Below, one piece after another: positions 41,238 to 64,000 of a stretch of DNA of 64,000 nt. This stretch comes from an uncultured Candidatus Saccharibacteria bacterium (GTDB lineage: Bacteria; Patescibacteriota; Saccharimonadia; Saccharimonadales; UBA10212), in the NCBI GenBank assembly GCA_964460855.1, contig CAYWQH010000006.1:3232-67231 (forward strand), in the 5' to 3' direction. Within the stretch, counting starts at the first letter, position 1. Each line of letters begins with the position of its first letter. Position numbers and translations under genes: made by a program. A model generated the notes under the pieces. The model saw only the letters and a program-made list of their open reading frames with translations, was not told the DNA's origin and searched no databases.

Positions 41238-41239
41238 TT

Positions 41240-49269: not shown

Positions 49270-49760
49270 ACCAAACCGAAACCGAAGCCAAAGTTATCCG
49301 CCCCACTAAAAAACAGCGCGAACTGCTGACTTTTATTGAAGAATTCATTGCCGAACATGGCTACAGCCCCAGTTACCGCGAAGTGATGAACGGCCTGAGG
49401 TATACGTCGGTTTCGACGGTGGCAACCCATATTAATAGCCTGATCAGCCGCGGCCATTTGCGCAAACGCGATAATTCGGCCCGCTCGCTGGAAGTGGTTA
49501 ACCCCGACCCGGCGACAATCGGCAAAGTCGTACCCAAGCAGTTAGTAGAAAGCGAAGAAAAGTGGCTGGTCGAAAAGATCGACCGCTTTTTTAAAGAGCT
49601 GGAAACGGCCCCCAAAATTATCGAAGCCGAACTGGACAACCTATATGTTTTAGTCGGCGCCTTAAAAGTGCTGGGCAGCCACGGCGCCGCCCAGGCGTTT
49701 ATTGCCCGGCTTAGCGAACTCAAAGCCCGCCTGGAAAACGACGAAGCCTACACTACTTGA
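49266..49760 (+). CDS. LexA-type winged-helix DNA-binding protein lacking the S24 peptidase domain (164 aa)
   Basis: KKQRELLTFIEEFIAEHGYSPSYREVMNGLRYTSVSTVATHINSLISRGHLRKR is the LexA N-terminal domain. The C-terminal 90 aa is helical with no Ser/Lys dyad region. Confidence 0.55.
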   Translation: MNQTETEAKVIRPTKKQRELLTFIEEFIAEHGYSPSYREVMNGLRYTSVSTVATHINSLISRGHLRKRDNSARSLEVVNPDPATIGKVVPKQLVESEEKWLVEKIDRFFKELETAPKIIEAELDNLYVLVGALKVLGSHGAAQAFIARLSELKARLENDEAYTT

Positions 49761-50346: not shown

Positions 50347-51332
50347 CAGATTCCTTTTACGCTAAAGTATGCCTGTTTTAAGCTATAACGGAAAGCGATA
50401 AAACCGGGAATAATTGGCAGCCAGAAGGTGCTTAGGCGGAAGCACAGCACTGCCAGCAGGGCGGTAGTACTGTCTACGCCGGCGCCGGCCAGGGCGGCCG
50501 TCATTGCCAGCTCGGTGGGGCCCAGGCCGCCGGGCGTCGGGCTCAGCGAAAATGCCAGGTTGCCGGCCGCGAAAACTATCAATACCATTGTCCGCGTCAA
50601 ATTTATGTCCATGGCATGCAGGCTGCACCACAGGGCCGCGATATAACAAAAACTAATACCCAGGTTCGCAGCGATGCAGCCGGCTAAGCCAAGCGGTTCG
50701 CGGGCCAAGCTAACCAATGTGCGTTTGACGGTATTAAAGAAAATATTAAGCCGCATATCGAGGCCTTTAAAAAATTCGGCCAGCGCTACTGCCAGAATCA
50801 GCACCGCCACTGCCAGGCCCATAACCAAATTAACCTCGCTGTTGGAGATTTGCCAATTTGATGGCGGGCCTTCGATAGCAATAACTATTAATGCCAAACC
50901 CATAAACCCACCGATGCCCAGCAGGTTGTTGGCTGCCGCCGTAGTGCCGGCGGCCGTTTTAGTGGTTTTAGTTTGCCTGGCAATATATAAAGTATTAAGT
51001 CCCAGGGCGCCGATGCCGCCGGGCAGCAGGCGGTTGGCGAATAAGTTGGCGGTTTGCACTATAAAAGTCCGTCCAAAAGGCAGCTGCCGGTTCAGGCTCA
51101 TATAAGCCAGTGCCGCGAAAATGTTTGAAAATAAAACTAGAACGAAAGCGGCTGCCAGCCAAAAGTAATTGACCTGGCCAAACAATTGTTTGTGGCCGGC
51201 CAGTTCGCGGAACTGGGGGGCTAGGGCGGCCACGGCCGCCGCTAAAATCGCTAGTTGTATCAGTAACCGGCGCCGGCCTTTCCCTTTTATCATCTTGGTG
51301 TGAATTGTATAGCTATTAAGCTTATGCTTCAA
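50346..51332 (-). CDS. Polytopic membrane protein, lysylphosphatidylglycerol-synthase-TM / flippase-like family
   Basis: 328 aa with about eight TM helices; basic N-terminus. Confidence 0.4.
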   Translation of the reverse strand: MKHKLNSYTIHTKMIKGKGRRRLLIQLAILAAAVAALAPQFRELAGHKQLFGQVNYFWLAAAFVLVLFSNIFAALAYMSLNRQLPFGRTFIVQTANLFANRLLPGGIGALGLNTLYIARQTKTTKTAAGTTAAANNLLGIGGFMGLALIVIAIEGPPSNWQISNSEVNLVMGLAVAVLILAVALAEFFKGLDMRLNIFFNTVKRTLVSLAREPLGLAGCIAANLGISFCYIAALWCSLHAMDINLTRTMVLIVFAAGNLAFSLSPTPGGLGPTELAMTAALAGAGVDSTTALLAVLCFRLSTFWLPIIPGFIAFRYSLKQAYFSVKGI

Positions 51333-52227
51333 TCGGTTCGGGCTGGGCAGCCGCCAGGGGTTCGGCGCCGCCGGCCCGGCGGGCGGCCCATAATTCGAAG
51401 AGTTTTTTAACCGCTAAGAAGGCCACAACGCCGTACAGGGCGCCGACAATTTCGTCGAAAGCGTAATGTTCGCCCTCGTAAATCGTACCAACGTAAATCA
51501 TAAACGGGTAAACCAATGATAATAAGCCCCACTTTTTGCCGAATAAAGTAAAAGCGAACAGGGCAAAAATGGTGGCATAGGCGGCGTGCAAGCTGGGTAC
51601 GGCAGCCACCGGGTTGGGCGAAATATGATTATAAAAAGACGGGAAGTTCTGGATGCCCAAGTGCGACCAGACATCGCTGGATATCCGGCGGATGGGCGGT
51701 ATAACACCTTGCTGGGTGGCCATCCAGGGCGGCGCCGCCGGAAAAGCCAAAAACGTTAAAAAGCCGGCAAAAGATACGACCAAATATGTGGCCACGTAAC
51801 GCCAATAGGCCGGTTCGCGCTTTTTCCAAATAATTATGGCCAGGGCAAACGGCAAGATAAAGTGCAGCATGTAAAACAGGTAAAAGGCGAAATCATACCA
51901 CTGCACATGGCCGTGCCAAAGCCAGCTTTGCAGCTTGGCGGTCGGCAGGGTGCCGAACAGCCACTTATCGGCGTGCGGCATAAAAGCGTAATCGACCCGG
52001 TGGTTGAGGTGCGGCACGATGCCGCGGAACATTTCATAAGCCAACAGGATGCCCATAAACGGCAGCATCCGCTTCAACATGGCCGTGGCCTGGCCGAAGC
52101 ACATAAAGATAAACGTCAAAAACACCAGCAGCTTGTCTGGCGTTGGAAAACTGGGGCGGGAGATGAAGATGGCGGCACAGGCGATAGTGCCGATAATTCC
52201 CAAAACCTGTAATTTGCTCAAACGCAC
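51322..52227 (-). CDS. PAP2-superfamily membrane phosphatase / phosphotransferase
   Basis: PSLHAAYA (PSGH-like) and GEHYAFDEIVG (SRxxxxxHxxxD-like) motifs on a six-TM scaffold. Confidence 0.5.
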   Translation of the reverse strand: MRLSKLQVLGIIGTIACAAIFISRPSFPTPDKLLVFLTFIFMCFGQATAMLKRMLPFMGILLAYEMFRGIVPHLNHRVDYAFMPHADKWLFGTLPTAKLQSWLWHGHVQWYDFAFYLFYMLHFILPFALAIIIWKKREPAYWRYVATYLVVSFAGFLTFLAFPAAPPWMATQQGVIPPIRRISSDVWSHLGIQNFPSFYNHISPNPVAAVPSLHAAYATIFALFAFTLFGKKWGLLSLVYPFMIYVGTIYEGEHYAFDEIVGALYGVVAFLAVKKLFELWAARRAGGAEPLAAAQPEPIEA

Positions 52228-52268
52228 CCCTATATTCTACCAAAAGCAAGATAGCGCTCGAACATTTA

Positions 52269-52341
52269 CCTGTGGGAGGGCGCTTCACGCCGGGTTTGTG
52301 TTAACAAACTCGGGCTGCGCTATGCGAAACCCTCCCACAGG
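52269..52341. repeat. 73-nt hairpin element: 12-bp perfect inverted repeat CCTGTGGGAGGG / CCCTCCCACAGG around an internal TGTTAACA palindrome
   Basis: Located in the 230-bp divergent region between the PAP2 gene and a GT4 gene. Confidence 0.5.
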
Positions 52342-52457
52342 CAAACGTCCTCGCACTATGTAACTTTCGAAATGGTGGAGGAAAATTATCAAACACAGCA
52401 GAATTACCCTTAAAACTGCACCGACCCCTGTCGGGCTGGTATAATGTATGGGCTTAT

Positions 52458-53657
52458 ATGAAAGTCGCGATTGTTTGTGAGCCGTATATTCCGGTTCCCC
52501 CGGTAAAGTACGGCGGCACTGAGTTAATCATTTATTATTTGATAAAAGGTCTGCAAGAACAGGGGCACGAACCGGTTCTTTTAGCCGCCGGCGATTCAAA
52601 CGTCGACTGCGAACTCATACCTATTATCGATAAGGCCATTTATTTTCCGACTAAAAAGAAAGACCTGCCGTCTTTTAAAAAGAAAGTCGAAAAAGTCCAC
52701 GAAAAAACCGCCAAAGAACTGCGCAAATTGCAGGGGCGGGTAGATATTATCCATTCCCACCATTTTGACCTCAAAAACTTCCAGTATTTTCCGAACCTGA
52801 CAACCCTGCACGGGCCGATTGACTTAATCGATTTGCAATATTACCTGGAGCGCAAAAACCTGTTTTTCGTGTCGATTTCGCAGGCCCAGCAGGCCGGCTG
52901 CCCCGAACTGCAATATATGGGCACGGTGTACAACGGTTTGGATACCAGCAAATTCCCGGTGGTCACCGAGCCTGAAGATTATGTTTGTTTCCTGGGCCGT
53001 TTTGACCGCGAAAAGAACCCGCACTTGGCCATTTTGCTGGCCATTAACCTCGGCATCAAAATTAAAGTCGCCGGTAAAATAGACCACCAGGGCGATGGAT
53101 ACTTCGAACACGAAGTAGCTAAATATTTTGACCATCCGCTGGTGGAATATTTAGGCGAACTGGCTTTTGACGAAAAAATCGAATTGGTCAGCAAAGCCAA
53201 ATGCAACCTGCACCCCACCGGATTCCGTGAGCCTTTTGGCTTAACAGTGTTAGAAGCGGCTTATTGCGGCACGCCGACGCTGGCGATCGCCAAAGGTTCG
53301 ATGCCGGAACTGATTGAAGAGGGCCGCACCGGCGTGCTGGTAGAAGATTTCGTCGAAGGCTACCACTATATGAAGTCTTGTTTTGACATGGACCGGACTT
53401 ATATATCTGACCGGGCCCGGGCTTTGTTTAACTATAAGACCATGACCAAGCAATATATCAAAGCCTACCAAGAAGTTATGAATACCTTTACCATCCGCAA
53501 TGAGCAAGACCAGCTAATCGAAAAGCTTACCAAGCACACCAAAGAAGAAATCGCCGAAATCTGGCAGGCCCATAAAAACCAACTGAAGCATAAAATCAAC
53601 CAACCGCCTAAGTCCAAGCCGGCTTCGGGAAACAAGCAGCGCGACCCGCTCATGTAA
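52458..53657 (+). CDS. GT4-family glycosyltransferase
   Basis: MKVAIVCEPYIPVPPVKYGGTELI...; E-x7-E (REPFGLTVLEAAYCGTP). Extended -10 TGgTATAAT at 52437-52445 lies only about 12 nt before the ATG. Confidence 0.7.
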   Translation: MKVAIVCEPYIPVPPVKYGGTELIIYYLIKGLQEQGHEPVLLAAGDSNVDCELIPIIDKAIYFPTKKKDLPSFKKKVEKVHEKTAKELRKLQGRVDIIHSHHFDLKNFQYFPNLTTLHGPIDLIDLQYYLERKNLFFVSISQAQQAGCPELQYMGTVYNGLDTSKFPVVTEPEDYVCFLGRFDREKNPHLAILLAINLGIKIKVAGKIDHQGDGYFEHEVAKYFDHPLVEYLGELAFDEKIELVSKAKCNLHPTGFREPFGLTVLEAAYCGTPTLAIAKGSMPELIEEGRTGVLVEDFVEGYHYMKSCFDMDRTYISDRARALFNYKTMTKQYIKAYQEVMNTFTIRNEQDQLIEKLTKHTKEEIAEIWQAHKNQLKHKINQPPKSKPASGNKQRDPLM

Positions 53658-53726
53658 TTTATTTGATATACCGGCAGCATAGCGGCTTGGTATTCTGGCT
53701 AAGCCTTTAATTAAGGAGGGTAAATT

Positions 53727-53852
53727 ATGGCAAACGAAGACTGGGTTGATAAAGCTAAAGACGAGTGGGGCGACATGAAGGATGGCGGCGAAGACGACGG
53801 CATGCAGTCCGACGACATGTTTGACGACCCCGAAATGGACGAAGCGGTTTAG
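53727..53852 (+). CDS. Small highly acidic protein (41 aa)
   Basis: Strong SD AAGGAGGG (53713-53720) 6 nt before the ATG. MANEDWVDKAKDEWGDMKDGGEDDGMQSDDMFDDPEMDEAV. Followed by a hairpin terminator. Below the 60-aa ORF cutoff. Confidence 0.6.
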   Translation: MANEDWVDKAKDEWGDMKDGGEDDGMQSDDMFDDPEMDEAV

Positions 53853-53875
53853 AGTAAAAAACTAGCTTACACCAA

Positions 53876-53899
53876 AAGCCGCCCTCCGGGGCGGCTTTT
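53876..53899 (+). terminator. Rho-independent terminator
   Basis: AAGCCGCCC, loop TCCG, GGGCGGCTT, then TTTAACTGTTT. Confidence 0.55.
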
Positions 53900-53955
53900 A
53901 ACTGTTTAGAGTAACCGCCGATAAGGGTTAGCATCATGCTACAATTGGGTCAGTT

Positions 53956-54978
53956 ATGCATCGTATGCTGCGTCTCGCCCACCACCGGCACACCGGCCGG
54001 CGGTTACCGCACCATCACACTTCGTACCACGCGATATTAGTGATACTGGCCGTTTTCGGGCTGTGTTTAATAAGTATCAGGCACGCCGCCGCCGGCAATT
54101 ATGTGGTAACCGCTAAAGTGTCCGCGCCATTGCCGGGCGTGCCATCGGTTATAACTGACCCGGCCAGCGGCTTGGTCACGACCGACCCGAACATTACGAT
54201 AAGCGGCAGCTGCCCGGTTATTACCCCGGCGATAATCGTTTTGCTGTACCGAAACGGCGTTTTGGTGGGCTCGATGGTCTGCCCGCCCAGCGGCCAGTTC
54301 AGTTTTCAGACCACCTTGCTGTACGGCAATAATGTTTTCGTGCCTAAAATTATTAATATAACTGATGACTACGGCCAGGACGGCCAGCCGATTACTATCG
54401 TTTACCGTTTTACGGAATCCAAGCCGCCCACTAATAAACTGCCGAACATTCCGCTCAAAGCCGACCATCAAATGTACCTTAACAGCGCCGACCAGATCGT
54501 TTTCTTCAAACCGGGCGAGGGTGTAACCCTGGCACTTGGTTACGGCGGCGGCATCGAACCCTACACTTTAATTATTAACTGGGGCGACGGCACCGAGCAA
54601 TCCTTCCCCATAGACAAAGCCGGCCACCGTGAAGTCAGCCATACTTTCGGCAGCCAAAAAAGCTTCGAAATAAATATGCGCCTCACCGACGCCCAGCAGC
54701 ACCTGGCCCGGTTAAGCCTGGCGGCCGTATCGTTAGTTGCCAACCAGGATATCGTTACGGCCAGCCCCCGCCAGCCATCCGTTACTTACAGGTTTGAACA
54801 ATATTTTAGCGACGGCCGGGTCTACGCCACGCTTTTAACCATAGCCTTTAGCTTGTTGGCGGTTGACGTATGGCTATACCGCCACTGGGGCAAGTACGCC
54901 AAAGTCCGTCCCGGCGCGGCGCCGTTCGCATCCGGCAAGAAAAACAAGAAAATCTCTAAATCCAAAGGTAAAAGATGA
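53956..54978 (+). CDS. Type I membrane protein with a PKD-like domain and a His-rich N-terminus (340 aa)
   Basis: HHRHTGRRLPHHHTSYH, then TM ILVILAVFGLCLISI, an ectodomain with YTLIINWGDGTEQSF...HTF (PKD motif), a C-terminal TM and a basic tail. Confidence 0.5.
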   Translation: MHRMLRLAHHRHTGRRLPHHHTSYHAILVILAVFGLCLISIRHAAAGNYVVTAKVSAPLPGVPSVITDPASGLVTTDPNITISGSCPVITPAIIVLLYRNGVLVGSMVCPPSGQFSFQTTLLYGNNVFVPKIINITDDYGQDGQPITIVYRFTESKPPTNKLPNIPLKADHQMYLNSADQIVFFKPGEGVTLALGYGGGIEPYTLIINWGDGTEQSFPIDKAGHREVSHTFGSQKSFEINMRLTDAQQHLARLSLAAVSLVANQDIVTASPRQPSVTYRFEQYFSDGRVYATLLTIAFSLLAVDVWLYRHWGKYAKVRPGAAPFASGKKNKKISKSKGKR

Positions 54979-55556
54979 AATTTTGGAAATGGCGGAGGTT
55001 AACCCTATTCCTGGTGATTTTCATAACGTCGGTAATAATTATCGGTTTTGCCGTGTGGGCCAACCAGTCGCGCAGCGTAGTACCGGTCAGTAACACTGCC
55101 GTGGAAGGCGCCACGGCCGTTAATTCCAAGCCTTTTATCACCGACTATTTTACAGTTACGCTGCCGGAAACGATGGTAGTTAAAAACGTCGAGAAGCCCA
55201 AGGACAGCCCGATACTAGAAAATATGCTTATTTCGGCACGGCCCAGCGCCGACTTGGTGCCGTATTCCGATAAAATCGCCATCACGATCGGCAACGCGCC
55301 ATCCGGCGGGCCGGCCGCCATCAGCGACGTCCATTTGCGCAAACTGCGCCCCGAAATTTATACGCCGCTGGCCATTAGCTACGCCCCGCCCGGGTACCTG
55401 GCCTATTCCAGCCACCAGGACAGCCTGATAGAAACGGACATTTTCTGGACGCATGGCGGCAAATACACCGCCGTGGCTTTCAGCTCGGCCGAAAACCGCT
55501 CGCCGGAACAGAACGACCTGCTGCGCCAGCTTTTTAGCTCCTGGCAGTGGAAATAA
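54975..55556 (+). CDS. N-terminally anchored extracytoplasmic protein (193 aa)
   Basis: TM LTLFLVIFITSVIIIGFAVWA; overlaps the previous gene by 4 nt. Confidence 0.4.
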   Translation: MKFWKWRRLTLFLVIFITSVIIIGFAVWANQSRSVVPVSNTAVEGATAVNSKPFITDYFTVTLPETMVVKNVEKPKDSPILENMLISARPSADLVPYSDKIAITIGNAPSGGPAAISDVHLRKLRPEIYTPLAISYAPPGYLAYSSHQDSLIETDIFWTHGGKYTAVAFSSAENRSPEQNDLLRQLFSSWQWK

Positions 55557-55582
55557 GTTGTTAATGGTAAAATTAATCAGAT

Positions 55583-56653
55583 ATGGTTGTGAAAGCCCTG
55601 GGTTCGTTATTGGCGCTGCCTTTGCTGTTTTTTGCCACAACGCCGTCCAGTACCAACTTCACGCTTCGAAATTATGACTTTGGCAATGGCGGCGGCAGTT
55701 TAAGCAGCCCCAGCTATAAATTGAACGGCAGTACCGGAACGCTGGGCGGCAAGCTGGGGCCGTCTACTAATTACGCCGTTAACGGCGGCTTAGGGCCGGC
55801 CGAAAACGCCGACGTGCCGCCGGCCCCGACGCTGACAAATCCTAGCAACCTCGAATATAACCGCCTGAAACTAGTGGTCGTCAAAGGCGCGGCCGACACG
55901 ACGGATACCAAGTACGCCATAGCCATCAGCTCTGATAACTTTGTAACTACTAAATATGTCCAAACAGATAACAGCATCGGCTCCAGCTATAGCATTTCGA
56001 ATTACCAGCTGTATGCCGGCTGGGGCGGGGCGTCCGGCTTTTTTATAACCGGCTTAACGCCTGGAACCACATATAAAGCCAAAGTCGCGGCCTACCAAGG
56101 CAATTTTACTAACAGCGCTTTTGGTCCGGCCACCAGCGGCGTTGCCACCGTGCAGCCAAGTTTAACTTTTGGCGTAGCAACCAGCCCCGTCAGCAACCCG
56201 TTAAAAATTAACTTTACCGGCGTCATAGCCAATACCGTGACCAACGCCGGCGCCGATGTTGTGCTGAGCCTGACGTCCAACGCCCACTCCGGCGGATGGC
56301 TATATATTAAAGACACCAACGCCGGCTTAAAAAGTACCTTCGCCAATAACTTCTTAATTTCTTCGGCCACGGCCGACTTAAACAGTGCCGGTACCGGCTA
56401 CGGCGGGATCGTAACCAGCACCAGCGCCAATAGCGGCTCGTTGGCCTCGCTGTCGCCATTCGACGGCGCCGGCAACCCGGCCAGCAACACGGTAGGCGGG
56501 TTATCCACAGCTTTGCAACAGCTTATTAGTACCGCCGGACCGGTCGATACCGGTAGTGCCACCGTCCGTTTTAAGGTGAAAACAACTACAACTACGCCCA
56601 GTGAGCCCGACTACGCCGATTTACTGACCTTTTTGGCAGCTATGACATTCTAG
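55583..56653 (+). CDS. Secreted surface protein with an FN3-like domain and a C-terminal DYxDLLTF...F motif (356 aa)
   Basis: Signal peptide; GLTPGTTYKAKVAAYQG (FN3-like); C-terminus ...PSEPDYADLLTFLAAMTF. Confidence 0.45.
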   Translation: MVVKALGSLLALPLLFFATTPSSTNFTLRNYDFGNGGGSLSSPSYKLNGSTGTLGGKLGPSTNYAVNGGLGPAENADVPPAPTLTNPSNLEYNRLKLVVVKGAADTTDTKYAIAISSDNFVTTKYVQTDNSIGSSYSISNYQLYAGWGGASGFFITGLTPGTTYKAKVAAYQGNFTNSAFGPATSGVATVQPSLTFGVATSPVSNPLKINFTGVIANTVTNAGADVVLSLTSNAHSGGWLYIKDTNAGLKSTFANNFLISSATADLNSAGTGYGGIVTSTSANSGSLASLSPFDGAGNPASNTVGGLSTALQQLISTAGPVDTGSATVRFKVKTTTTTPSEPDYADLLTFLAAMTF

Positions 56654-56737
56654 TTGCACTTTTAAAATGCTTAAGGCATACTTTACCCCGTAACAACATA
56701 AGCATTTTTAATATCAAATTAGGAGGAAATGCTTTCT

Positions 56738-57772
56738 ATGAAACAAAAATTTAACAGGGTCCGCTCGCTCGGCCTTGCAGCCATATTGTCGCTATCGGTA
56801 GCGGCGCCTGCATTACTTGTGGCCGGCCAAGCCCAGGCTGCCGGACTGGACAGGGTCTTAGTCCGCTTCGACGAGATGTCGCAAAGCACGCCTACGACCG
56901 GTACGGTCTGCGCCCGGCCCACATCAACAACCACCGAAGACCACGTGCGCGTGGACTTCCCGGCCGGTTTTACGGTTAGTACAACTGCCGGAAACTGGAC
57001 GACCAACACAACCAACACTGCCTGGCCGTCAGGTGCCAATGCCTGGACTGGTATCGGTTCGCCGTCAATTGCCAGCCAAGCCGTTACTTTTACCAGCGCT
57101 GACTTAACACCTGGTACTCTTTACTGCTTCAACTGGGACAACAGCGCGGCTTTGAGCCAGCCTGGCAGCCCCGGTACTAACGAAGGCGGCTTTGTGACTA
57201 CCCGTAACACGGGAGTCGATATAGATACCGGTGCCTTTAGTACGGCTACCATCGTCAACGATACTATTACCGTTACTGCTACCGTTGCCCAAACTTTCAG
57301 CTTCGCCCTGAGTGGCACTACTGACCCGCTAGGCACATTGCCGACCGGATCGGTTACCACCAGCGGCACACCCCGTACCGTTACTGTAAATACCAACGCC
57401 GCCAACGGCTGGTTAGTATGGGGTAAAGACAGCCAAACCGGCTTGCACTCGACTTTAAACGGCCACACCATTGCGTCTGTTACGCCTGGCGTTGCCAGCA
57501 CTTTGTCGGCTGGAACAGAAGGCTATAATACCGGCATTGCCAATTCGCAAACCGGCGGCACCGGCACCATTACCGTAACCGCGGCTTACGCCGATGGCGG
57601 CCTTGGAACCGGAGCAGGCCTAAGCACCACCCTGCGCACTTTGGCTACTTCCAACGGAACCGCCAATGGCGCCGTACTGACTTTCAAGAACAACGTCGCA
57701 ATTTCGACCACTACCCAAGCCGCTACCGACTATCAGGACATAATTACCCTGACCGGCGCCGGACTGTTCTAG
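56738..57772 (+). CDS. Secreted surface protein, paralog A (C-terminal ...TQAATDYQDIITLTGAGLF)
   Basis: SD AGGAGG (56721-56726), signal peptide, conserved N-terminal block GLDRVLVRFDEMSQSTPTTGTVCARPTST. Confidence 0.5.
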   Translation: MKQKFNRVRSLGLAAILSLSVAAPALLVAGQAQAAGLDRVLVRFDEMSQSTPTTGTVCARPTSTTTEDHVRVDFPAGFTVSTTAGNWTTNTTNTAWPSGANAWTGIGSPSIASQAVTFTSADLTPGTLYCFNWDNSAALSQPGSPGTNEGGFVTTRNTGVDIDTGAFSTATIVNDTITVTATVAQTFSFALSGTTDPLGTLPTGSVTTSGTPRTVTVNTNAANGWLVWGKDSQTGLHSTLNGHTIASVTPGVASTLSAGTEGYNTGIANSQTGGTGTITVTAAYADGGLGTGAGLSTTLRTLATSNGTANGAVLTFKNNVAISTTTQAATDYQDIITLTGAGLF

Positions 57773-57834
57773 TCCCTGAGATAGATTTAAAATCGTAACA
57801 AAATTAATAGGAGTTTAGGGAGGTTCTCGCAACT

Positions 57835-58860
57835 ATGAATCCTTTACAAAGAACTAATAATATTGGTCTGGCAGCTTTACTAGTGCTAGCCATGTGTCTG
57901 GTTGCAATAGCTGCAGCCAGGCAGGTCAACGCCGCCGGCTTAGACCGCGTCCTGGTGCGCTTTGACGAAATGTCTCAAAGCACCGCCACCACAGGAACGG
58001 TTTGCGCCCGGCCCACTTCAACCGCCACCGAAGACCAAGTTAAAGTTACATTTCCGTCTGGCTACGTCTTAGGCGCCAACGGTACGTGGACAACTAATAC
58101 AACTAACACTGCGTGGCCGGCCAGCGCTAACGCCTGGACCGTAAGCTCACCATCGGTAAGCGGCCAGGATGTCACTTTTACCAGCGCTGACTTAACCGCC
58201 AACCAGCTTTACTGCTTTAACTGGACTAACAGCGCCGCTTTAACCCAACCGGGTAGCCCGGCAGTGAACGAGAGCGGATCGGTAACAACCTATGCGTCAG
58301 CGTCACCGGTAGATACCGGCAGTTTTGCTACAGCTACAATCGCTAACGACACCATAACGGTAACCGCCAGCGTATCGCAGACTTTCAGCTTTGCTTTAAG
58401 CGGCACTTCTGACGCTCTTGGAACTTTAGCTACCGGATCGGTTAACAGCAGCCCAACACCTAGGACAATTACTGTTGGCACCAACGCCGCCAATGGCTGG
58501 TTAGTTTGGGGCAAAGACAGTCAAACTGGCTTACACTCAACTTTTGCCAGCCATACTATCGCTTCGACAACCCCGGGATCTAATAGCACGATTACATCCG
58601 GTGCTGAAGGCTATAACACCGGCGTAACTAAGAACTCCCCAGGCGGAACCGGCACTTTAACCATTGCCGCGCCGTTTGTCGGCGGTTCTTCCGGCAAGGG
58701 CGGCGGTTTGGACACCACCCTGCGCACCGTAGTTACATCAGACGGCCCGAACTCCAACGCCGTGCTGACATTCACCAACAATGCAACAATTGCAACTACA
58801 ACCCAGGCCGCGACAGACTACACCGACGTCATCACCTTGACCGGTGCCGGCTTGTTCTAA
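57835..58860 (+). CDS. Secreted surface protein, paralog B (about 65% identical to paralog A)
   Basis: Same N-terminal block and the C-terminal ...TQAATDYTDVITLTGAGLF. SD GGGAGG. Confidence 0.5.
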   Translation: MNPLQRTNNIGLAALLVLAMCLVAIAAARQVNAAGLDRVLVRFDEMSQSTATTGTVCARPTSTATEDQVKVTFPSGYVLGANGTWTTNTTNTAWPASANAWTVSSPSVSGQDVTFTSADLTANQLYCFNWTNSAALTQPGSPAVNESGSVTTYASASPVDTGSFATATIANDTITVTASVSQTFSFALSGTSDALGTLATGSVNSSPTPRTITVGTNAANGWLVWGKDSQTGLHSTFASHTIASTTPGSNSTITSGAEGYNTGVTKNSPGGTGTLTIAAPFVGGSSGKGGGLDTTLRTVVTSDGPNSNAVLTFTNNATIATTTQAATDYTDVITLTGAGLF

Positions 58861-58888
58861 AAAATCAAACTCCTAATTTGATCCTAAA

Positions 58889-58914
58889 CTGCCCCTTTCC
58901 CGGGGCAGTTTTTT
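58889..58914 (+). terminator. Rho-independent terminator after the paralog pair
   Basis: CTGCCCC, loop TTTCCC, GGGGCAG, then TTTTTT. Confidence 0.7.
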
Positions 58915-58930
58915 GGTATACTTATGCTTA

Positions 58931-60037
58931 ATGAGTTGGAAAAAACTGATATCGGTCTATGTGCTGTTGAGCGTTGTGCTGACCGGCCTGGTTGCCGGCT
59001 TGTGGTCGGCCCACACCAACGCCCAGGACGCTAATTCCGGGCCTTTTAATATCCAGGTAACGCCGACTACTATTATCGAAACGGTTAAACCCGGCGAATC
59101 CAAAACCATTGAAATTAAAATCCATAACCAGGCCCAGCAGCCCGAACTGCTTAAAGCTGAGTTGCGTAATTTCCAAGTTAACCAGGATAACGGTGAGGTC
59201 CAGCTACTAAACACCCCGCCGCCGGACGTTAAAGATTGGGTAAGCTTTAGTGACCCGACGTTTACGGTGCAGCCCGGCGATTTTTTCACTGAACATATGA
59301 ATATAAACACGCCGCAAACCGCTGGCTTTAGTTATACCTTTGCCACGGTCATCAGCCGGGCCAACCCGCCCCAGCAGAAACCTGGTGCCCGCACCCTGGT
59401 TGGTTCGGTGGCCATATTTTCGCTGTTATCGGTCGACCGGCCGGGCGCCGTCCGCAAGTTCGAAGTCACCCAATTCAAAAGCACCCGTAACTTGTACGAA
59501 TACCTGCCGGCTACTTTCTCGATCAAAATCAAGAATACCGGCAACACTTTCGTCAGGCCGGTGGGCAATATCTTTATCCAGCGCGGCCCCAACTCGCCCA
59601 AATCGATTTCGACGCTGACCATAAACCAAAACGGTTCATACGTTTTGCCAAACACTACCCGCAGTTTCGCGACCGTCTGGAACGAAGGGTTTCCAAATTT
59701 TGAAGACGTTAAAGTCGCCGACAACGCCCCGGCCAAGCGGCAGCTGACCTGGGATTGGAGCAAGGCCCAAAACTTCCGCATCGGCCATTATAACGCCAAA
59801 ATGGTGGCTGTTTATAACGATGGCAAACGCGACATACCGGTAGAAGCGAGTATCGGCTTTTGGGTGCTGCCCTGGAAACTTTTAATTATCATGGCATTAG
59901 TAATCCTCATACTGTTGGTTGGTATCGGAACCATTTTCCGGCGGGCGTTTAAAACGGCGGCGCACCAGGCGGGCAGGCGGCGTACCGCCGCTGTCCACCG
60001 GCCAACGGATAACCACCACAGTGGCCCGCGCACTTAA
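58931..60037 (+). CDS. C-terminally membrane-anchored cell-surface protein (DUF916/CscA-like architecture, about 368 aa)
   Basis: Signal peptide, beta-rich ectodomain, C-terminal TM WKLLIIMALVILILLVGIGTIF plus a basic tail. The TTG at 58913 in the track lies inside the terminator T-tract, so ATG 58931 is preferred. Confidence 0.45.
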   Translation: MSWKKLISVYVLLSVVLTGLVAGLWSAHTNAQDANSGPFNIQVTPTTIIETVKPGESKTIEIKIHNQAQQPELLKAELRNFQVNQDNGEVQLLNTPPPDVKDWVSFSDPTFTVQPGDFFTEHMNINTPQTAGFSYTFATVISRANPPQQKPGARTLVGSVAIFSLLSVDRPGAVRKFEVTQFKSTRNLYEYLPATFSIKIKNTGNTFVRPVGNIFIQRGPNSPKSISTLTINQNGSYVLPNTTRSFATVWNEGFPNFEDVKVADNAPAKRQLTWDWSKAQNFRIGHYNAKMVAVYNDGKRDIPVEASIGFWVLPWKLLIIMALVILILLVGIGTIFRRAFKTAAHQAGRRRTAAVHRPTDNHHSGPRT

Positions 60038-61100
60038 AGCAAGCTTATTAGCGGTAGCGGTCATCTGGGTGGCCGTCCAAACCGTAGCCGGCCGGCCGGT
60101 TAGCGCCGTCCAGGGCACAACCGTATCACCCGGTTTTATCCGTTCCAGCCTGGCCGACGGCCAGAATCAACAAGACGAAACTGTCAGCGTCCGCAATGAT
60201 TACGACCAGGCCCTGGACTACACGGCCAGGATATCAGGAGAAAGCCAGGTAAACGGCCAAATGGTGCCCAGCAACCAGTCGGCCGACAGCCAGCTGGTTA
60301 AGGCCATCAGCCTGACTCCCGGTAGTTTCAACTTGTCTCCCGGTAATTCAATCAACGTAAAGCTTACTATTAATAATTCGCCGGATTTGAGCCCCGGCGG
60401 TCATTACGCCGCGTTAGTTATTGCCCAAGGATCGGGTAACGCCAAAATAGTCGGTTTGCAAGGCGCTGTTAGTGTCAGCATTTATGTGGTTAAAGAGGGT
60501 GGGGCGGTGCGCAGCATAACTGTAGCCGTACCGGGTGTTAACGGCTTGCGCCTGAGCTTACCAGAATTTATCGACCTGACTTTCCATAACACTGGCAATG
60601 TTGACGTCGTGCCCCGCGGCGCGGCCTTAATATCCGCCGGAAACCCCAATAACGTCTTCCGTAAGGCGGTCATCAACGACGGCTCGATACCGGTTTTTAC
60701 CGGCAACGACCTTAAAGTCCGCAGTAAATATACGGAGCTAAAGCCTATCCGCTGGCCCGGCCATTATTATTTAACACTAAACTACCGGTACGATGGCAGC
60801 GATGATACGCGCACAGTTAAGTACAGTTTCTGGTACATACCGGCTATCACGTTACTTTACTTGTTAATTATCATAGTATTACTTATTTTGGTAGTTCGCT
60901 GGCTTAAGCGGCGCCATTATTTAGGCCGGATAGGCGCGACACTGCGGCGCTGGCTGGGAATAAAGCCCAAGCGCCAGCCGCCTAAAAACCGGCCGCGCCA
61001 TTACCGGCCGCGGGTAATTTTGCGCGATTTTGCCGCCCAGGCCAAAGCCACGGCCGACAAACCCGGCAAAGACCCTAAAAAACCGGTGGAAAAAAAGTAA
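60019..61100 (+). CDS. C-terminally membrane-anchored cell-surface protein, paralogous architecture (about 360 aa)
   Basis: GTG 60019 gives a clean signal peptide MARALKASLLAVAVIWVAVQTVAG. C-terminal TM ITLLYLLIIIVLLILVV plus an Arg/Lys tail. The in-frame ORF opens at 59919, overlapping the upstream gene. Confidence 0.4.
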
Positions 61101-61157
61101 AAATAACCTGTTTTAAAGCTTGAGCGATATAGCATTTCAAGCTATTATTAAACGGTA

Positions 61158-63968
61158 ATGTTTCAGCAGCAATGGAGGGGTCACATTGTCTTGCTGGTTG
61201 TTTTGATAGCCAGTGTATTCGCTGGTATCTTTTTTATGAAGCCCCAAACGGCCCATGCCGGTATAAATCACCAGATTAATTTCCAGGGCAAGCTAACCAA
61301 CCCGGACGGCACCAACGTGGCCAACAGCACCTATTCGGTGCGTTTTCGCTTTTATAACGATGCTACCGCCGACGCGGCCAACGCCTGTTCGGCTAATAGT
61401 TGTTTGTGGGAAGAGACCCAGTCTGTTTCCACTACTGATGGTATATTTAACGTTTCTCTCGGGAGTTCCACGAGCCTGCCCGGGAGTGTAGATTTTAACA
61501 CCGCTTCCCTTTTCCTGGGGGTGAAGGTCGGCTCGGATACGGAGATGACCCCACGTATCCAGCTGACCGCCGCCCCCTATGCGTTTAATAGTGAGAGCCT
61601 GGGTGGCCTGGGCAAGTCTGCGTTCGTGCAGCTTGCCCAAGGCGTCCAGACAGACTCCAGCGCCAACGATTCGATTGCCATCGATAAAACCAATGCATCC
61701 GGCAATCTACTGCTGCTTAAGAAAAGCGGCGCGCCGGTAGTAACCATCGGCAATGCCGGGGCTACGCTGTTCCAAAACGCTACCGATTCGGCCAATGCCT
61801 TCCAAATTAAGAACTTAGGCGGTAAATCGTACTTTAACGTCGATACCCAAAACGCCAAGATTTCCATAGGTGATACGACCATTGCCGGAACCATTCAAAT
61901 TGGCAACTCAACCACCGGAGCCGTCGCCCAAACTATTAATATCGGCAATACCACCGCTAGCGGCGCGACCACTGCGATTAATATCGGCGCTACCGGTACT
62001 TCGCCGGCCGGTTCGACTATCAGCATCGGCACCACATCCGACACCACCGCCGCCCAGGCGATTGTTATCGGCAGCAATGCCAACGCCAGCAGCAGCGTTA
62101 CATTGCAGGGGCCGGTGGTCATTGCCAATGCCCAAAGCGGCAGCACGGCTACCTACTTATGTTTGAACGGCTCCAACCAGATAGCCAGCTGCTCGGCAAC
62201 GATTTCCGGCTCTGCCTTTATACAGGGCGGCAACGCTTTCACCGGTTTAACCGGCAGTACCGCTATATTTGGAACTACTACCGGTAACAGCCTGCAAATT
62301 AAGACCAATAACGTCGCCCGGGCGATTTTTGACCAAAGCAATAACTTGTTCGTCGGCAACGCCGATGCCACCGGTACGGCCAGCGCGCCAAACGACTTCA
62401 CTGTATCCGGCACCGGAAGCGCAACTGCCGGCACGACGGCCGGCAAACTAACAGTTAAGGGCGGCGCCGGAGCAACCACCGGAAACGGTTCGGCAGGCGG
62501 CGCCTTGGCTTTGAACGGGGGCAACGCCGGCGGCGCCAGCAATAACGCTGGTGGCAATGTTACAGTTTCCGGCGGCACGGCCACCGGTAACGCAGCTGGC
62601 GGCACCATAACTTTAGCCGGCGGATCCAGCCCCAGCGGCACTAACGGCGGCGTACTGATTAAAAACGCCGGCGATTCGACCAATGCCTTCCAGTTGCAGA
62701 ACGCGGCCGGTTACCAGCTGCTAAATGTCGACTCCACCTCCGACGCGTCTAATTTGATTACCAACGGCAGCTTCGAAGATAACACCACTCCGCCAACCGG
62801 CTGGACGGCTGCCAACGGCAGCGGAACTTCTACGCTTACATCGCAGCCATCATCAACCACCGCGCCGTACATCGGCCAATTCTCGATGCGCGACGTTACC
62901 AGTGGCGCTAACGCTTCCAACGCCGGCGCCCGCTGGAGCCGCAGCTTCACTAACTCCACGGTTTATTCCTTTACCTTGTATGCCAAAGCCTCTGGAGCCA
63001 ACTTCAGCACTTTTGAAATCGGCAACTCCAACAACAACTCTACCGATACTAACTGTTTGACGGCCCAAACGGTAGTTACCGGCGGTTGGACCAAATTCAG
63101 CTGTTCATTCACCTATACCGGTACCACCGGCACCAGCTATGTCTACTTAAAGCAAACTGACGCCACAGGCCGCACTTTTTATATCGACGGAGTAAAACTG
63201 GAAGCAGCCAGCACAGCAACGCCTTATAAAGATAGCGGCGTAACAATTAACGGTGTAGTTAATTCACCAACTGCCTTCCAAAACCAAAGCGACTCCACTA
63301 ACGCCTTGAGCGTCCAAAACTCGGCCGGCGCCATCCAGTTTTATATCGACACGGTCAATAGCCGCGTTGTAGTGGGTGACGGCGCTGCCGGTTCCAGCGT
63401 GACATTGCTACAGCTGGATAACAAAAATACTACCGGTGATCCGGCGACGGCCATCGGCGGCACTATGTATTACAACTCTTTCAGCAATACTTTTCGCTGT
63501 TACGAAAACGGCGCCTGGGGCGACTGTATTACACACCACAAGCTGGTGCTGGCAGTCGGCGGTGATGTAACGGATAACACCGGTAACTGTACGTTTACCA
63601 ACGTCACTAACTTTAACTTTACGGTTGCTAACGGCGTACAGGAGAGGTTCCACGCCACCATAATTTACACGGCCGCGGCCACAACTACCGGAATTGGTTT
63701 AGCCGCTAACGGCCCGGCCGCTTCACCTTTTGCCTATAGCTTTACATCTGCCTTAACTACAGCTACTTCCGGTGGTGGCGGCGGAACCGGTAACGACGGC
63801 AGTAGCTGTACCGCCTCATCCGTTTCGGCCGCTGCTACCGGTAATACGGCCGTACTCGACGGCTACATCCTGCCGTCGGCCGGCGGCACCCTTCAAATTA
63901 GTTTTGCCAGCGAGGTTAATAACTCGGCCATAGTTATCAAAGCCGGAAGTACGTTGGAGTGGTGGTAA
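61158..63968 (+). CDS. Large Ser/Thr/Gly/Ala/Asn-rich secreted adhesin or fibre-like protein ending in ...TLEWW (936 aa)
   Basis: N-terminal TM/signal, INFQGKLTNPDGTNVANSTYSVRFRFYND block, then long low-complexity beta-helix-like repeats. Confidence 0.5.
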   Translation: MFQQQWRGHIVLLVVLIASVFAGIFFMKPQTAHAGINHQINFQGKLTNPDGTNVANSTYSVRFRFYNDATADAANACSANSCLWEETQSVSTTDGIFNVSLGSSTSLPGSVDFNTASLFLGVKVGSDTEMTPRIQLTAAPYAFNSESLGGLGKSAFVQLAQGVQTDSSANDSIAIDKTNASGNLLLLKKSGAPVVTIGNAGATLFQNATDSANAFQIKNLGGKSYFNVDTQNAKISIGDTTIAGTIQIGNSTTGAVAQTINIGNTTASGATTAINIGATGTSPAGSTISIGTTSDTTAAQAIVIGSNANASSSVTLQGPVVIANAQSGSTATYLCLNGSNQIASCSATISGSAFIQGGNAFTGLTGSTAIFGTTTGNSLQIKTNNVARAIFDQSNNLFVGNADATGTASAPNDFTVSGTGSATAGTTAGKLTVKGGAGATTGNGSAGGALALNGGNAGGASNNAGGNVTVSGGTATGNAAGGTITLAGGSSPSGTNGGVLIKNAGDSTNAFQLQNAAGYQLLNVDSTSDASNLITNGSFEDNTTPPTGWTAANGSGTSTLTSQPSSTTAPYIGQFSMRDVTSGANASNAGARWSRSFTNSTVYSFTLYAKASGANFSTFEIGNSNNNSTDTNCLTAQTVVTGGWTKFSCSFTYTGTTGTSYVYLKQTDATGRTFYIDGVKLEAASTATPYKDSGVTINGVVNSPTAFQNQSDSTNALSVQNSAGAIQFYIDTVNSRVVVGDGAAGSSVTLLQLDNKNTTGDPATAIGGTMYYNSFSNTFRCYENGAWGDCITHHKLVLAVGGDVTDNTGNCTFTNVTNFNFTVANGVQERFHATIIYTAAATTTGIGLAANGPAASPFAYSFTSALTTATSGGGGGTGNDGSSCTASSVSAAATGNTAVLDGYILPSAGGTLQISFASEVNNSAIVIKAGSTLEWW

Positions 63969-64000
63969 TGATTAAGTTTATTTTCTGTCTTGTTGATATA

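What the first reader, a model, noticed from the sequence alone, without database searches (positions are those of the whole stretch)
55583..61100. Cell-surface complex cluster: three secreted paralogs with a shared aromatic-terminal C-motif, then two C-terminally anchored paralogs
Genes at 55583, 56738 and 57835 encode signal-peptide proteins whose C-termini share D-Y-x-D-(I/L/V)-(I/L)-T-(L/F)...-F with a terminal Phe (TDYQDIITLTGAGLF, TDYTDVITLTGAGLF, DYADLLTFLAAMTF). The latter two are about 65% identical tandem duplicates and share an N-terminal block (GLDRVLVRFDEMSQST.TTGTVCARPTST). After a terminator, two genes (58931, 60019) encode proteins with a signal peptide, a beta-rich ectodomain and a C-terminal TM plus basic stop-transfer tail. 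This organisation resembles Firmicutes Csc/WxL-type surface complexes, in which anchor proteins display non-covalently bound WxL-like partners. However the C-motif ends in Phe, not the WxL signature, so this may be a distinct uncharacterised surface-display system.
Basis: partly seen in the sequence, partly recalled or inferred. Interest (0 to 1): 0.65.

Follow-up and report, generated by a model that had tools for sequence, protein, structure and literature searches.

The report
Pam-type pilus operon of Saccharibacteria
This gene cluster is a divergent copy of the recently described "Pam" pilus system of ultrasmall (CPR/Saccharibacteria) bacteria: three pilin subunits, two membrane-anchored chaperones and an anchor protein that probably build a surface filament by strand swapping. 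It is therefore a real and biologically interesting system but no longer an unknown one.

Summary
B and C are 66% identical tandem paralogs. A shares only its C-terminal half with them. All three end in D-Y-x-D-x-x-T…aromatic-COOH. D and E are collinear paralogs with a C-terminal membrane helix, and a strong terminator separates C from D.

The cluster is larger than flagged, 53956-63968. It matches the Pam pilus operon described in a 2026 preprint from Ca. Mycosynbacter amalyticus.
- The upstream gene hits NCBIfam PamR (E=3.7e-34).
- D folds as a two-domain chaperone; its best PDB matches are WxLIP and CsuC/CfaA/FimC/PapD.
- B folds as two β-domains joined by a conserved, low-confidence linker strand.
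- F is the tail-fibre-like neighbour.

The C-terminal motif is the most conserved element in 115 diverse family representatives, all of which end in F or Y. I read it as the last strand of the acceptor domain and not as a WxL-like wall anchor.

D and E resemble WxLIP, but no WxL domain or LPXTG protein is present.

Verdict: new, divergent member of a just-described kind. Direct comparison with the M. amalyticus pilins and complex modelling could not be done.

The parts
53956..54978 (+). PamR-like protein: signal peptide, conserved N-terminal strand (NYVVTAKV), beta-rich ectodomain, C-terminal TM helix and basic tail. Proposed pilus terminator and membrane anchor.
   Evidence: NCBIfam NF058578 CPR_pilus_PamR, E=3.7e-34, 118 bits, below the 300-bit equivalog cutoff. 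12 of 12 homologs from related loci hit the same model, best 4.4e-45. N-terminal alternating V/A/V conservation. Role taken from the preprint.
54975..55556 (+). Conserved 193-aa accessory protein (p193) with an N-terminal hydrophobic segment and a C-terminus ending in NWQW[RK]. Function unknown.
   Evidence: Overlaps the PamR-like stop by 4 nt. Found between PamR-like and A in 28 related loci. No Pfam or NCBIfam hit, and not PamT.
55583..56653 (+). [quoted passage not shown]
   Evidence: hhalign A187-356 vs B183-347, 99.2%. Weak fn3 hit. A homolog (L005:8839-9894) hits NF058579 CPR_pilus_PamT at E=2.2e-8 over residues 6-75. Co-occurs strictly with E and F.
56156..56182 (+). Pilin A inter-domain linker strand (SLTFGVATS), proposed donor strand.
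   Evidence: Highly conserved 'PSLTFxVxT' block in 37 A-like proteins. Aligned to the B linker by hhalign.
56609..56650 (+). Pilin A C-terminal motif DYADLLTFLAAMTF-COOH.
   Evidence: Present in 37 of 37 A-like homologs, always ending in F or Y.
56729..57772 (+). Pilin B (major-type pilin; alternative start 56738): signal peptide, N-terminal beta-sandwich with an invariant Cys pair, linker strand, C-terminal beta domain.
   Evidence: AF2 model, pLDDT 80.5: two beta domains, linker 178-203 at pLDDT <=56. More than 1181 homologs. 756 clusters at 50% identity. C61 and C133 invariant.
57284..57313 (+). Pilin B inter-domain linker strand (VAQTFSFALS), proposed donor strand with alternating hydrophobic residues.
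   Evidence: F190, S191, F192 and L194 invariant in 56 homologs. Modelled as strand 188-194 inside the low-confidence linker. In the Pam cryo-EM structures the linker strand is the donated strand.
57725..57769 (+). Pilin B C-terminal motif TDYQDIITLTGAGLF-COOH. Proposed last strand of the acceptor domain and chaperone docking element.
   Evidence: Eight invariant residues. Modelled as strand 332-345. Terminal aromatic residue in 115 of 115 representatives.
57835..58860 (+). Pilin C, tandem duplicate of B.
   Evidence: 66% identity to B. Most related genomes have a single copy.
58813..58857 (+). Pilin C C-terminal motif TDYTDVITLTGAGLF-COOH.
58886..58911 (+). Intrinsic-terminator-like hairpin after the major pilin genes. 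Probably attenuates read-through into the chaperone genes.
   Evidence: 10-bp stem, 6 G-C pairs, loop of 6, then TTTTTGG. It is the best terminator-like site in 52200-64000.
58931..60037 (+). Chaperone D (PamC/PamD-like): signal peptide, two Ig-like beta-sandwich domains, C-terminal TM helix, basic tail.
   Evidence: AF2 pLDDT 92.3. Foldseek: WxLIP 9i25_C 5.8e-10, CsuC 5d6h_A 9.6e-10, also CfaA, Caf1M, FimC, PapD. A D-like gene starts within 400 bp of the pilin gene in 69 of 71 loci.
60021..61100 (+). Chaperone E, paralog of D with the same architecture. Proposed partner of pilin A.
   Evidence: hhalign D vs E, 99.8%, 274 columns. E-like genes occur only in loci that also carry A-like genes: 33 loci have both, none has E without A.
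61158..63968 (+). F: 936-aa secreted tail-fibre-like protein with a carbohydrate-binding module. Candidate adhesin associated with the pilus.
   Evidence: Pfam CBM_4_9, E=7.1e-10, above cutoff. NCBIfam GTA_spike_fiber, E=1.9e-8. Follows E in 31 related loci. The preprint reports a tail-fibre-like gene consistently next to pam operons.

Best explanation
The region 53956-63968 is one operon-like unit. It encodes a Pam-type pilus of a Saccharibacteria (CPR) bacterium, which is a chaperone-assisted, usher-less, sortase-less donor-strand-exchange filament.

Proposed mechanism. Steps marked (inferred) are not shown here.
1. All components are exported by Sec. Each has a signal-peptide-like N-terminus.
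2. [quoted passage not shown] (Inferred) That domain is incomplete on its own.
3. (Inferred) The invariant C-terminal motif D-Y-x-D-x-x-T...aromatic-COOH is the last strand of this acceptor domain. It lines the groove that receives a foreign strand, and its free aromatic carboxy-terminus docks in the chaperone, as the C-terminus of Pap/Fim subunits docks in PapD.
4. (Inferred) D and E are two-domain Ig-like chaperones tethered to the membrane by a C-terminal helix. They hold newly exported pilins by strand complementation. Gene co-occurrence suggests that D serves B/C and E serves A.
5. (Inferred) The linker strand of an incoming pilin (B: TFSFAL; A: LTFGVA) displaces the chaperone strand and polymerises the fibre.
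6. B and C are the bulk subunits. They are duplicated and are followed by a terminator that would lower expression of the chaperones. A is a minor subunit with a different N-terminal domain.
7. (Inferred) The PamR-like protein ends growth by donating its N-terminal strand and anchors the fibre through its TM helix.
8. (Inferred) F, with its carbohydrate-binding module, contributes host binding. The likely role of the filament is attachment of the epibiont to its host cell.
For: Homology to Pam components:
- PamR-like hits NCBIfam PamR at E=3.7e-34. 12 of 12 homologs hit it as well.
- One A-like homolog hits the NCBIfam PamT model at 2.2e-8.
- 3 of 115 diverse B-family representatives hit NF058581 'Pam pilus system pilin subunit', best 1.6e-5.

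Architecture identical to the preprint's description:
- Two-domain pilins joined by a single conserved strand.
- Two PapD/FimC-like chaperones with a C-terminal TM helix.
- An anchor protein with a C-terminal TM helix.
- A tail-fibre-like neighbour.
- A paired-cysteine pattern.

Conservation pattern:
- The preprint states that the donated linker and the C-terminal-domain binding site are the most conserved parts of the pilins.
- Here the linker (F190, S191, F192, L194) and the C-terminal strand are among the invariant positions.

Taxonomy and synteny:
- All 80 related loci are labelled Saccharibacteria/Patescibacteria MAGs, apart from a few that are probably mis-binned.
- The order pilin then chaperone holds in 69 of 71 loci.
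- There is no usher, sortase or LPXTG in the cluster.

Chaperone-subunit docking through the subunit C-terminus is established for Pap/Fim pili. This rests on my own knowledge of the PapD-peptide work and was not checked in a paper here.
Against: - The window's own A, B, C, D and E give no hit at E<=1 to any NCBIfam Pam model.
- The PamR hit is well below the equivalog cutoff, 118 against 300 bits.
- I could not obtain the M. amalyticus PamA/B/C/D/E sequences or structures. They are not among the 80 loci and are not detectable in the PDB copy. Orthology of individual pilins is therefore unproven.
- Foldseek of the B model found only generic Ig-like adhesins and no pilins.
- ATP synthase genes, reported next to pam operons, were not found within 10 kb in any locus. 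That search used two Walker-motif patterns only.
- Gene order differs from M. amalyticus.
Confidence: 0.8

Rival explanations
1. WxL/Csc-like static display complex. D and E are not assembly chaperones. They are permanent membrane anchors, like WxLIP/CscA, that hold monomeric A, B and C non-covalently at the cell surface. The C-terminal motif would play the part of the WxL domain, and no filament is formed.
For: The top Foldseek hit of D is WxLIP bound to a long WxL. Recurrent sub-threshold DUF916 hits occur in 28 of 60 homologs. EfmWxLIP1 is the top, though non-significant, profile hit in PDB sequences. The architecture is the same: signal peptide, two Ig-like domains, TM helix. AlphaFold2 predicts that WxLIP completes the WxL sandwich with a strand.
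Against: There is no WxL domain, no DUF3324 hit and no LPXTG partner. The cluster carries PamR, which belongs to a system shown by cryo-EM to form filaments, and a relative carries a PamT-like N-terminus. The conserved inter-domain strand with alternating hydrophobic residues has no role in a static complex. A terminator between the subunit and chaperone genes suggests that subunits greatly outnumber D and E, which does not fit a 1:1 complex.
Confidence: 0.1
2. The pilus is real, but the C-terminal motif is itself the donated strand. It would insert into the next subunit, as the C-terminal strands do in Bacteroidota type V pili, and would not be the groove-lining last strand.
For: The motif is the most conserved element of the family. 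It is a beta-strand with alternating hydrophobic residues. Its confidence falls towards the end, from pLDDT 84 to 70.
Against: In the solved Pam filaments the donated strand is the inter-domain linker. Here the linker is the lowest-confidence part of the monomer model (pLDDT 48-56), as expected for a strand that lacks its partner. The C-terminal strand is modelled inside the domain at pLDDT 70-84. There is no lipobox and no sign of the proteolytic activation typical of type V pilins, judged from the sequences.
Confidence: 0.07
3. The C-terminal aromatic motif is a sorting or processing signal, for example an outer-membrane beta-signal ending in Phe or a sortase/exosortase-type tag. On this reading A, B and C are otherwise unrelated surface or S-layer proteins.
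For: Terminal Phe is typical of outer-membrane beta-barrel proteins (my own knowledge). A, B and C are Thr/Ser/Gly-rich surface-type proteins.
Against: B is modelled as two soluble beta-sandwich domains and not as a membrane barrel. The motif has no following hydrophobic segment or basic tail, and there is no LPXTG. No sortase, exosortase or BamA-like gene is in the cluster. Saccharibacteria are generally considered monoderm (my own knowledge).
Confidence: 0.03

Closest known systems
Pam pilus system of Candidatus Mycosynbacter amalyticus (PamA/B/E/T pilins, PamC/D chaperones, PamR anchor). bioRxiv 10.64898/2026.03.03.709456; NCBIfam NF058578, NF058579, NF058581.
   Same: CPR/Saccharimonadia lineage. 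Sec-exported two-domain pilins joined by a conserved strand. Two PapD-like chaperones with C-terminal TM helices. A PamR homolog with a C-terminal TM helix. A tail-fibre-like neighbour. No usher and no sortase. Paired cysteines in the pilins.
   Different: - Gene order differs. Here it is PamR, p193, A, B, C, D, E, F. In M. amalyticus the order judged from accession numbers is PamC, PamB, PamR, PamD, PamE, PamA, PamT.
- The pilins are smaller, about 31 kDa mature against 38.7 and 55 kDa, with one Cys pair instead of two or three.
- There is no 55-kDa PamA-type pilin and no stand-alone PamT.
- There is an extra conserved gene, p193.
- No ATP synthase genes were found nearby.
- Sequence similarity is low: only PamR is detected directly from the window.
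WxL/Csc clusters of Firmicutes (WxLIP = DUF916 + DUF3324 + TM helix; short and long WxL proteins). PMC10599100; PDB 9i25, 9i1y.
   Same: A membrane-tethered two-Ig-domain protein encoded next to secreted partner proteins in a monoderm. It is the best structural match of D. The partner is held by insertion of a strand into an incomplete beta-sandwich; this is predicted for WxLIP-WxL.
   Different: No WxL domain, no DUF3324 signature and no LPXTG protein. The partners here carry an internal donor-like strand and belong to a filament-forming family. The lineage is different.
Chaperone-usher pili of Gram-negative bacteria (Pap, Fim, Csu, CFA/I, Caf1).
   Same: The two-domain Ig-like chaperone fold (Foldseek E from 1e-9 to 1e-6). 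A conserved subunit C-terminus. The donor-strand complementation and exchange logic. A terminator after the major pilin gene, as in pap (my own knowledge).
   Different: No outer membrane and no usher. The chaperones are membrane-anchored. The donor strand is an inter-domain linker and not an N-terminal extension. The pilins have two domains. No Pfam PapD_N/PapD_C match.

Membership tests
Pam pilus system (CPR) | PamR: RbmA-like protein with an N-terminal extra strand and a C-terminal TM helix, encoded in the operon. | tested here: met
   53956-54978 hits NF058578 at E=3.7e-34 over residues 41-265. The score of 118 bits is below the 300-bit equivalog cutoff, so it is a homolog and not a certified equivalog. 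12 of 12 syntenic homologs also hit. The C-terminal hydrophobic helix and conserved N-terminal strand are seen in the sequence.
Pam pilus system (CPR) | [quoted passage not shown] | tested here: inconclusive
Pam pilus system (CPR) | Sequence membership of the pilins in the NCBIfam Pam pilin models (NF058581 Pam_pilin_C, NF058579 PamT). | tested here: inconclusive
   The window's A, B and C give no hit at E<=1. 3 of 115 B-family representatives hit NF058581, best 1.6e-5. One A-like homolog hits PamT at 2.2e-8, over its N-terminal 70 residues only.
Pam pilus system (CPR) | Two PapD/FimC-like chaperones that carry a C-terminal TM helix. | tested here: met
   D: AF2 pLDDT 92.3, two beta-sandwiches plus helix 315-355. 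Foldseek hits to CsuC, CfaA, Caf1M, FimC and PapD at 1e-9 to 5e-7. E is a collinear paralog, hhalign 99.8%.
Pam pilus system (CPR) | Restricted to CPR bacteria, mainly Saccharimonadia. | tested here: met
   Named homologs and almost all of the 80 loci are Saccharibacteria/Saccharimonadales/Patescibacteria MAGs.
Pam pilus system (CPR) | Conserved neighbourhood: tail-fibre-like gene and ATP synthase genes. | tested here: inconclusive
   The tail-fibre-like F is present and syntenic. No ATP synthase alpha or beta Walker motifs were found within 10 kb in the window or in 80 loci (motif search only).
Pam pilus system (CPR) | Subunits polymerise into helical filaments by donor-strand exchange. | not testable with these tools
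   This needs multimer modelling or cryo-EM. Only monomer models were possible.
WxL/Csc surface cluster (Firmicutes) | At least two proteins with a WxL domain (PF13731). | tested here: not met
   No WxL hit in A, B, C or F, nor in 56 B-like homologs at E<=0.1.
WxL/Csc surface cluster (Firmicutes) | WxLIP: DUF916 (PF06030) + DUF3324 + C-terminal TM helix. | tested here: inconclusive
   The fold and architecture match, and WxLIP is the top Foldseek hit. PF06030 scores only 16.4 bits against a 27.3-bit cutoff and is sub-threshold in 28 of 60 homologs. There is no DUF3324 hit. The profile search of PDB sequences gives E=0.15 for EfmWxLIP1.
WxL/Csc surface cluster (Firmicutes) | LPXTG-anchored CscD-type protein in the cluster. 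| tested here: not met
   No LPxTG-like motif in any of the eight cluster proteins.
Chaperone-usher pili | Outer-membrane usher, and a periplasmic PapD-family chaperone (PF00345/PF02753). | tested here: not met
   No usher or PapD_N/PapD_C Pfam hit in the cluster or in 60 D-like proteins. Only the chaperone fold is similar. 2 of 55 D/E-like proteins hit PRK09918 weakly at 0.0015.
Sortase-assembled Gram-positive pili | LPXTG pilins and a pilus-specific sortase. | tested here: not met
   No LPXTG. No sortase domain above noise.

The most novel reading that the evidence does not exclude
Pam chaperones (D and E here) and the WxL-interacting proteins of Firmicutes could be true homologs. If so, CPR Pam pili, Firmicutes WxL/Csc clusters and Gram-negative chaperone-usher pili would form one ancient family of strand-complementing chaperone-subunit systems. 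The membrane-tethered, usher-less form would be the monoderm state.

A corollary is that the invariant aromatic C-terminal strand of Pam-type pilins would be the functional counterpart of the subunit C-terminus recognised by PapD. WxL proteins might then also be chaperone-handled, possibly polymerising, subunits.

The Pam preprint does not mention WxL at all.
Probability: 0.3. Interest if true: 0.6.

Novelty: new member of a known kind. Interest (0 to 1): 0.4.

Why it matters
CPR/Saccharibacteria live attached to host bacteria, and how they hold on is largely unknown. Pam pili were identified only in 2026, in one cultivated species.

- This cluster shows that a compact and very widespread variant exists in many environmental Saccharibacteria. 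The B-like pilin family has 756 clusters at 50% identity, and the operon is syntenic in at least 70 species-level genomes.
- It has a fixed core (anchor, pilin, chaperone) and an optional module (minor pilin A, second chaperone E, carbohydrate-binding fibre F). That module probably sets host specificity.
- Two testable details go beyond the preprint. The first is an invariant aromatic C-terminal strand as a family signature. The second is a one-chaperone-per-pilin-class pairing inferred from gene co-occurrence.
- The structural tie between the Pam chaperones and WxLIP suggests a link to Gram-positive surface systems that the preprint does not discuss.

Tried and rejected
- PDB sequence searches with A, B, D and with family profiles gave no significant hit. 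The Pam cryo-EM chains are either absent from this copy or too divergent.
- The single genome-contig scan returned 80 Saccharibacteria loci but not M. amalyticus. Direct comparison with PamA-E and PamT was therefore impossible.
- Foldseek of the B model against the PDB gave only generic Ig-like adhesins: integrin, cohesin, SdrG, BslA.
- I tested whether p193 is PamT. It is not.
- I tested whether F or p193 contain a pilin C-terminal domain, and whether PamR-like is related to D/E. hhalign found no relation.
- I looked for ATP synthase genes next to the operon and found none.
- I looked for LPXTG motifs and found none.
- I searched for tRNA and Rfam features in the window and found none.
- A literature search for the publication behind PDB 9i25/9i1y found nothing in the library.
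- Rejected: an outer-membrane beta-signal reading of the terminal Phe, and sortase or exosortase sorting signals (see the rival explanations).

Full report
**1. What is in the sequence.**
The flagged interval holds five co-directional genes:
- A, 55583-56653.
- B, 56729-57772. The 344-aa form starting at 56738 is the one present in public assemblies, P0001.
- C, 57835-58860.
- D, 58931-60037.
The in-frame GTG at 60021 gives VARALKASLLAVAVIWV..., a signal-peptide-like N-terminus, so E is 60021-61100 and overlaps the end of D by 17 nt.

B and C are 66% identical along their whole length. A is related to them only in its C-terminal half: A195-356 vs B189-347, 33% identity, E=9e-9, and profile-profile 99.2%, E=2.6e-19. 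D and E are collinear paralogs (hhalign 99.8%, 274 columns).

**2. The motif is not chance.**
- In 56 B-like homologs D334, Y335, D337, T340, A344, G345, L346 and F347 are invariant.
- All 37 A-like homologs from related genomes end ...DYxDxxT[FLI]xxxxx[FY].
- A profile search of 1.84 billion cluster representatives found 756 clusters at E<=1e-3 and 268 at E<=1e-30.
- Of 115 full-length representatives, each from a separate 50%-identity cluster, all end in F (110) or Y (5). 103 carry the full motif.

The other strongly conserved block is the strand between the two halves of the protein...PQTFSFALSG..., with F190, S191, F192 and L194 invariant. Its counterpart in A is PSLTFxVxT.

**3. The unit is larger than flagged.**
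Upstream lie a 340-aa gene (53956-54978) and a 193-aa gene (54975-55556, overlapping it by 4 nt). Downstream lies a 936-aa gene (61158-63968).

In 80 related loci from GTDB species representatives I called ORFs and labelled them by BLASTP against the window proteins. The order PamR-like, p193, A, B, D, E, F recurs. A D-like gene starts within 400 bp of the pilin gene in 69 of 71 loci that have enough sequence.

Two architectures dominate. One is a minimal core of PamR-like, B and D. The other is an extended form that adds A, E and F. E-like and F-like genes occur only where an A-like gene occurs: 33 loci have A and E, and none has E without A. The tandem B/C duplication is rare.

**4. What the proteins are.**
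*PamR-like.* The 340-aa upstream protein hits NCBIfam NF058578, 'pilus system RbmA-like protein PamR', at E=3.7e-34. Its 118 bits are below the 300-bit equivalog cutoff. All 12 tested syntenic homologs hit the same model, best 4.4e-45.

[quoted passage not shown] It reports the following:
- Cryo-EM structures of filaments from Ca. Mycosynbacter amalyticus, made of PamA and PamB.
[quoted passage not shown] That domain accepts the linker strand of the neighbouring subunit.
- The operon also encodes PamE, the tip subunit PamT, and two PapD/FimC-like chaperones, PamC and PamD, that unusually carry a C-terminal TM helix.
- It also encodes PamR, an RbmA-like protein with an N-terminal strand and a C-terminal TM helix, proposed to terminate and anchor the pilus.
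- A tail-fibre-like gene is consistently nearby.
- The donated linker and the C-terminal-domain binding site are the most conserved parts.

*Chaperone D.* AlphaFold2 on a 60-sequence alignment (pLDDT 92.3) gives two beta-sandwich domains followed by helix 315-355. Foldseek against the PDB returns these matches, all with probability 1.00:
- WxLIP of E. faecium bound to a long WxL protein, 9i25_C, 5.8e-10.
- The archaic chaperone CsuC, 9.6e-10.
- CfaA, Caf1M, YadV, DraB, FimC and PapD.

*Pilin B.* AlphaFold2 (pLDDT 80.5) gives two beta domains. The only low-confidence part is the linker, 178-203, which contains strand 188-194. The C-terminal motif forms the last strand, 332-345.

*F.* It has a CBM_4_9 carbohydrate-binding module above the Pfam threshold and a near-threshold GTA/phage spike-fibre domain.

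*Further sequence links.* One A-like homolog matches NF058579, PamT, at 2.2e-8 over its N-terminal 70 residues. Three of 115 B-family representatives match NF058581, 'Pam pilus system pilin subunit', best 1.6e-5.

*Cysteines.* The numbers in the family are mostly even (2, 4 or 6), in line with the paired cysteines reported for PamA and PamB.

**5. Most likely mechanism.**
Shown here:
- Homology of one component to PamR.
- The chaperone fold and membrane tether of D and E.
- The two-domain pilin architecture.
- The conservation pattern.
- Tight synteny.
- The terminator-like hairpin.

Inferred from the Pam structures and from chaperone-usher biology:
- After Sec export, D and E hold the incomplete C-terminal domain of the pilins by strand complementation.
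- The linker strand of the next subunit replaces the chaperone strand, so the fibre grows from the base.
- PamR-like caps and anchors the fibre.

This strand pairs with the incoming donor strand, and its free carboxy-terminus is likely to dock into the chaperone. That would parallel the conserved C-terminus of Pap/Fim subunits bound by PapD, which is my own knowledge and was not checked here. This reading explains why the motif is shared by A, B and C although their N-terminal domains differ.

The A/E/F co-variation suggests that D serves B/C and E serves A. It also suggests that A, E and F form an optional module, plausibly an adaptor or tip plus an adhesin. The terminator after the duplicated B/C genes would give an excess of subunit over chaperone.

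**6.
The comparison with WxL/Csc clusters is structurally apt. WxLIP has the same signal peptide, two Ig-like domains and TM helix. AlphaFold2 predicts that it completes the WxL sandwich with one of its own strands (PMC10599100). It is also the top structural hit of D.

At the sequence level the similarity is only sub-threshold:
- PF06030 scores 16.4 bits against a 27.3-bit cutoff, with sub-threshold hits in 28 of 60 homologs.
- The profile search of PDB sequences gives E=0.15 for EfmWxLIP1.

Membership fails on defining features. There is no WxL domain, no DUF3324 hit and no LPXTG protein. The system is also no longer uncharacterised.

**7. Limits.**
- I could not compare directly with the M. 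amalyticus proteins. They are not among the fetched loci and are not detectable in the PDB copy.
- The window's own pilins and chaperones do not hit any Pam model at E<=1.
- Foldseek of B finds no pilin.
- No multimer modelling was possible, so the identity of the donated strand and the role of the C-terminal strand remain inferences.
- ATP synthase genes, reported near pam operons, were not found with two Walker-motif patterns.

**8. Verdict.**
This is a real, strongly conserved, divergent Pam-type pilus operon of a Saccharibacteria genome: a new member of a kind described in 2026. Interest is moderate. The finding is correct and biologically meaningful, but its main claim to novelty has been overtaken.

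Three points remain open and testable:
- The invariant aromatic C-terminal strand as a family signature.
- The chaperone-pilin pairing.
- The possible homology between Pam chaperones and WxLIP.

Noticed in passing
window 4049-17313 (+ strand): A run of seven large genes includes a PrgI-family protein (6805-7956), a TraG/VirB4-type P-loop ATPase (8839-10752), a 1087-aa protein with an M23 peptidase domain (10778-14041) and an SLT transglycosylase protein (14043-15932). This looks like the monoderm-type type IV secretion system reported for Patescibacteria (PMC12102498, title only).
   Followed up: partly
window 54975-55556: The 193-aa protein between PamR-like and pilin A is conserved in 28 related loci. 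It always has an N-terminal hydrophobic segment and a C-terminus ending in NWQW[RK]. It has no Pfam or NCBIfam hit, is not PamT, and the preprint text I read describes no such component.
   Followed up: partly
related loci L003-L082: Pilin A, chaperone E and fibre protein F behave as one optional module. E and F are found only where A is found. Loci without A have only PamR-like, B and D, sometimes with a second D-like gene. This suggests chaperone-pilin specificity.
   Followed up: partly
proteins P0286 (936 aa), P0289 (1641 aa), P0291 (1113 aa), P0299 (784 aa); P0351, P0359, P0368, P0374, P0380 (780-985 aa): Some family members are giant proteins. Some carry a complete B-like pilin module at the C-terminus after 460-1300 extra residues. 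Others carry only the B-like N-terminal domain at their N-terminus. They may be adhesin-fused pilins.
   Followed up: no
window 38543-53657: The pilus operon sits directly downstream of a cell-envelope polysaccharide region. One gene, a GT4 glycosyltransferase at 52458-53657, was confirmed by Pfam. The other annotations come from reading the translations only: dTDP-rhamnose synthesis genes at 39517-42798, an O-antigen-ligase-like membrane protein at 47469-48863, and further glycosyltransferases. The preprint reports an unidentified modification on a PamA serine, and B and C are very Thr/Ser-rich, so pilin glycosylation is conceivable.
   Followed up: no
window 35047-37047 (- strand): A 666-aa protein gives strong matches to two recent Pfam families of unknown function: DUF7657 (E=2.2e-94) and DUF7654 (E=8.3e-29).
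   Followed up: no
loci L008, L036, L082: A few contigs carrying this Saccharibacteria-type operon are labelled as Nevskiaceae, Pristimantibacillus or Babeliales MAGs. They are probably mis-binned contigs and not cases of transfer outside CPR.
   Followed up: no
D model against the PDB; Pam preprint: The best structural match of the Pam-type chaperone is the Firmicutes WxL-interacting protein (9i25, 9i1y, released January 2026). The Pam preprint does not mention WxL or WxLIP anywhere.
   Followed up: partly
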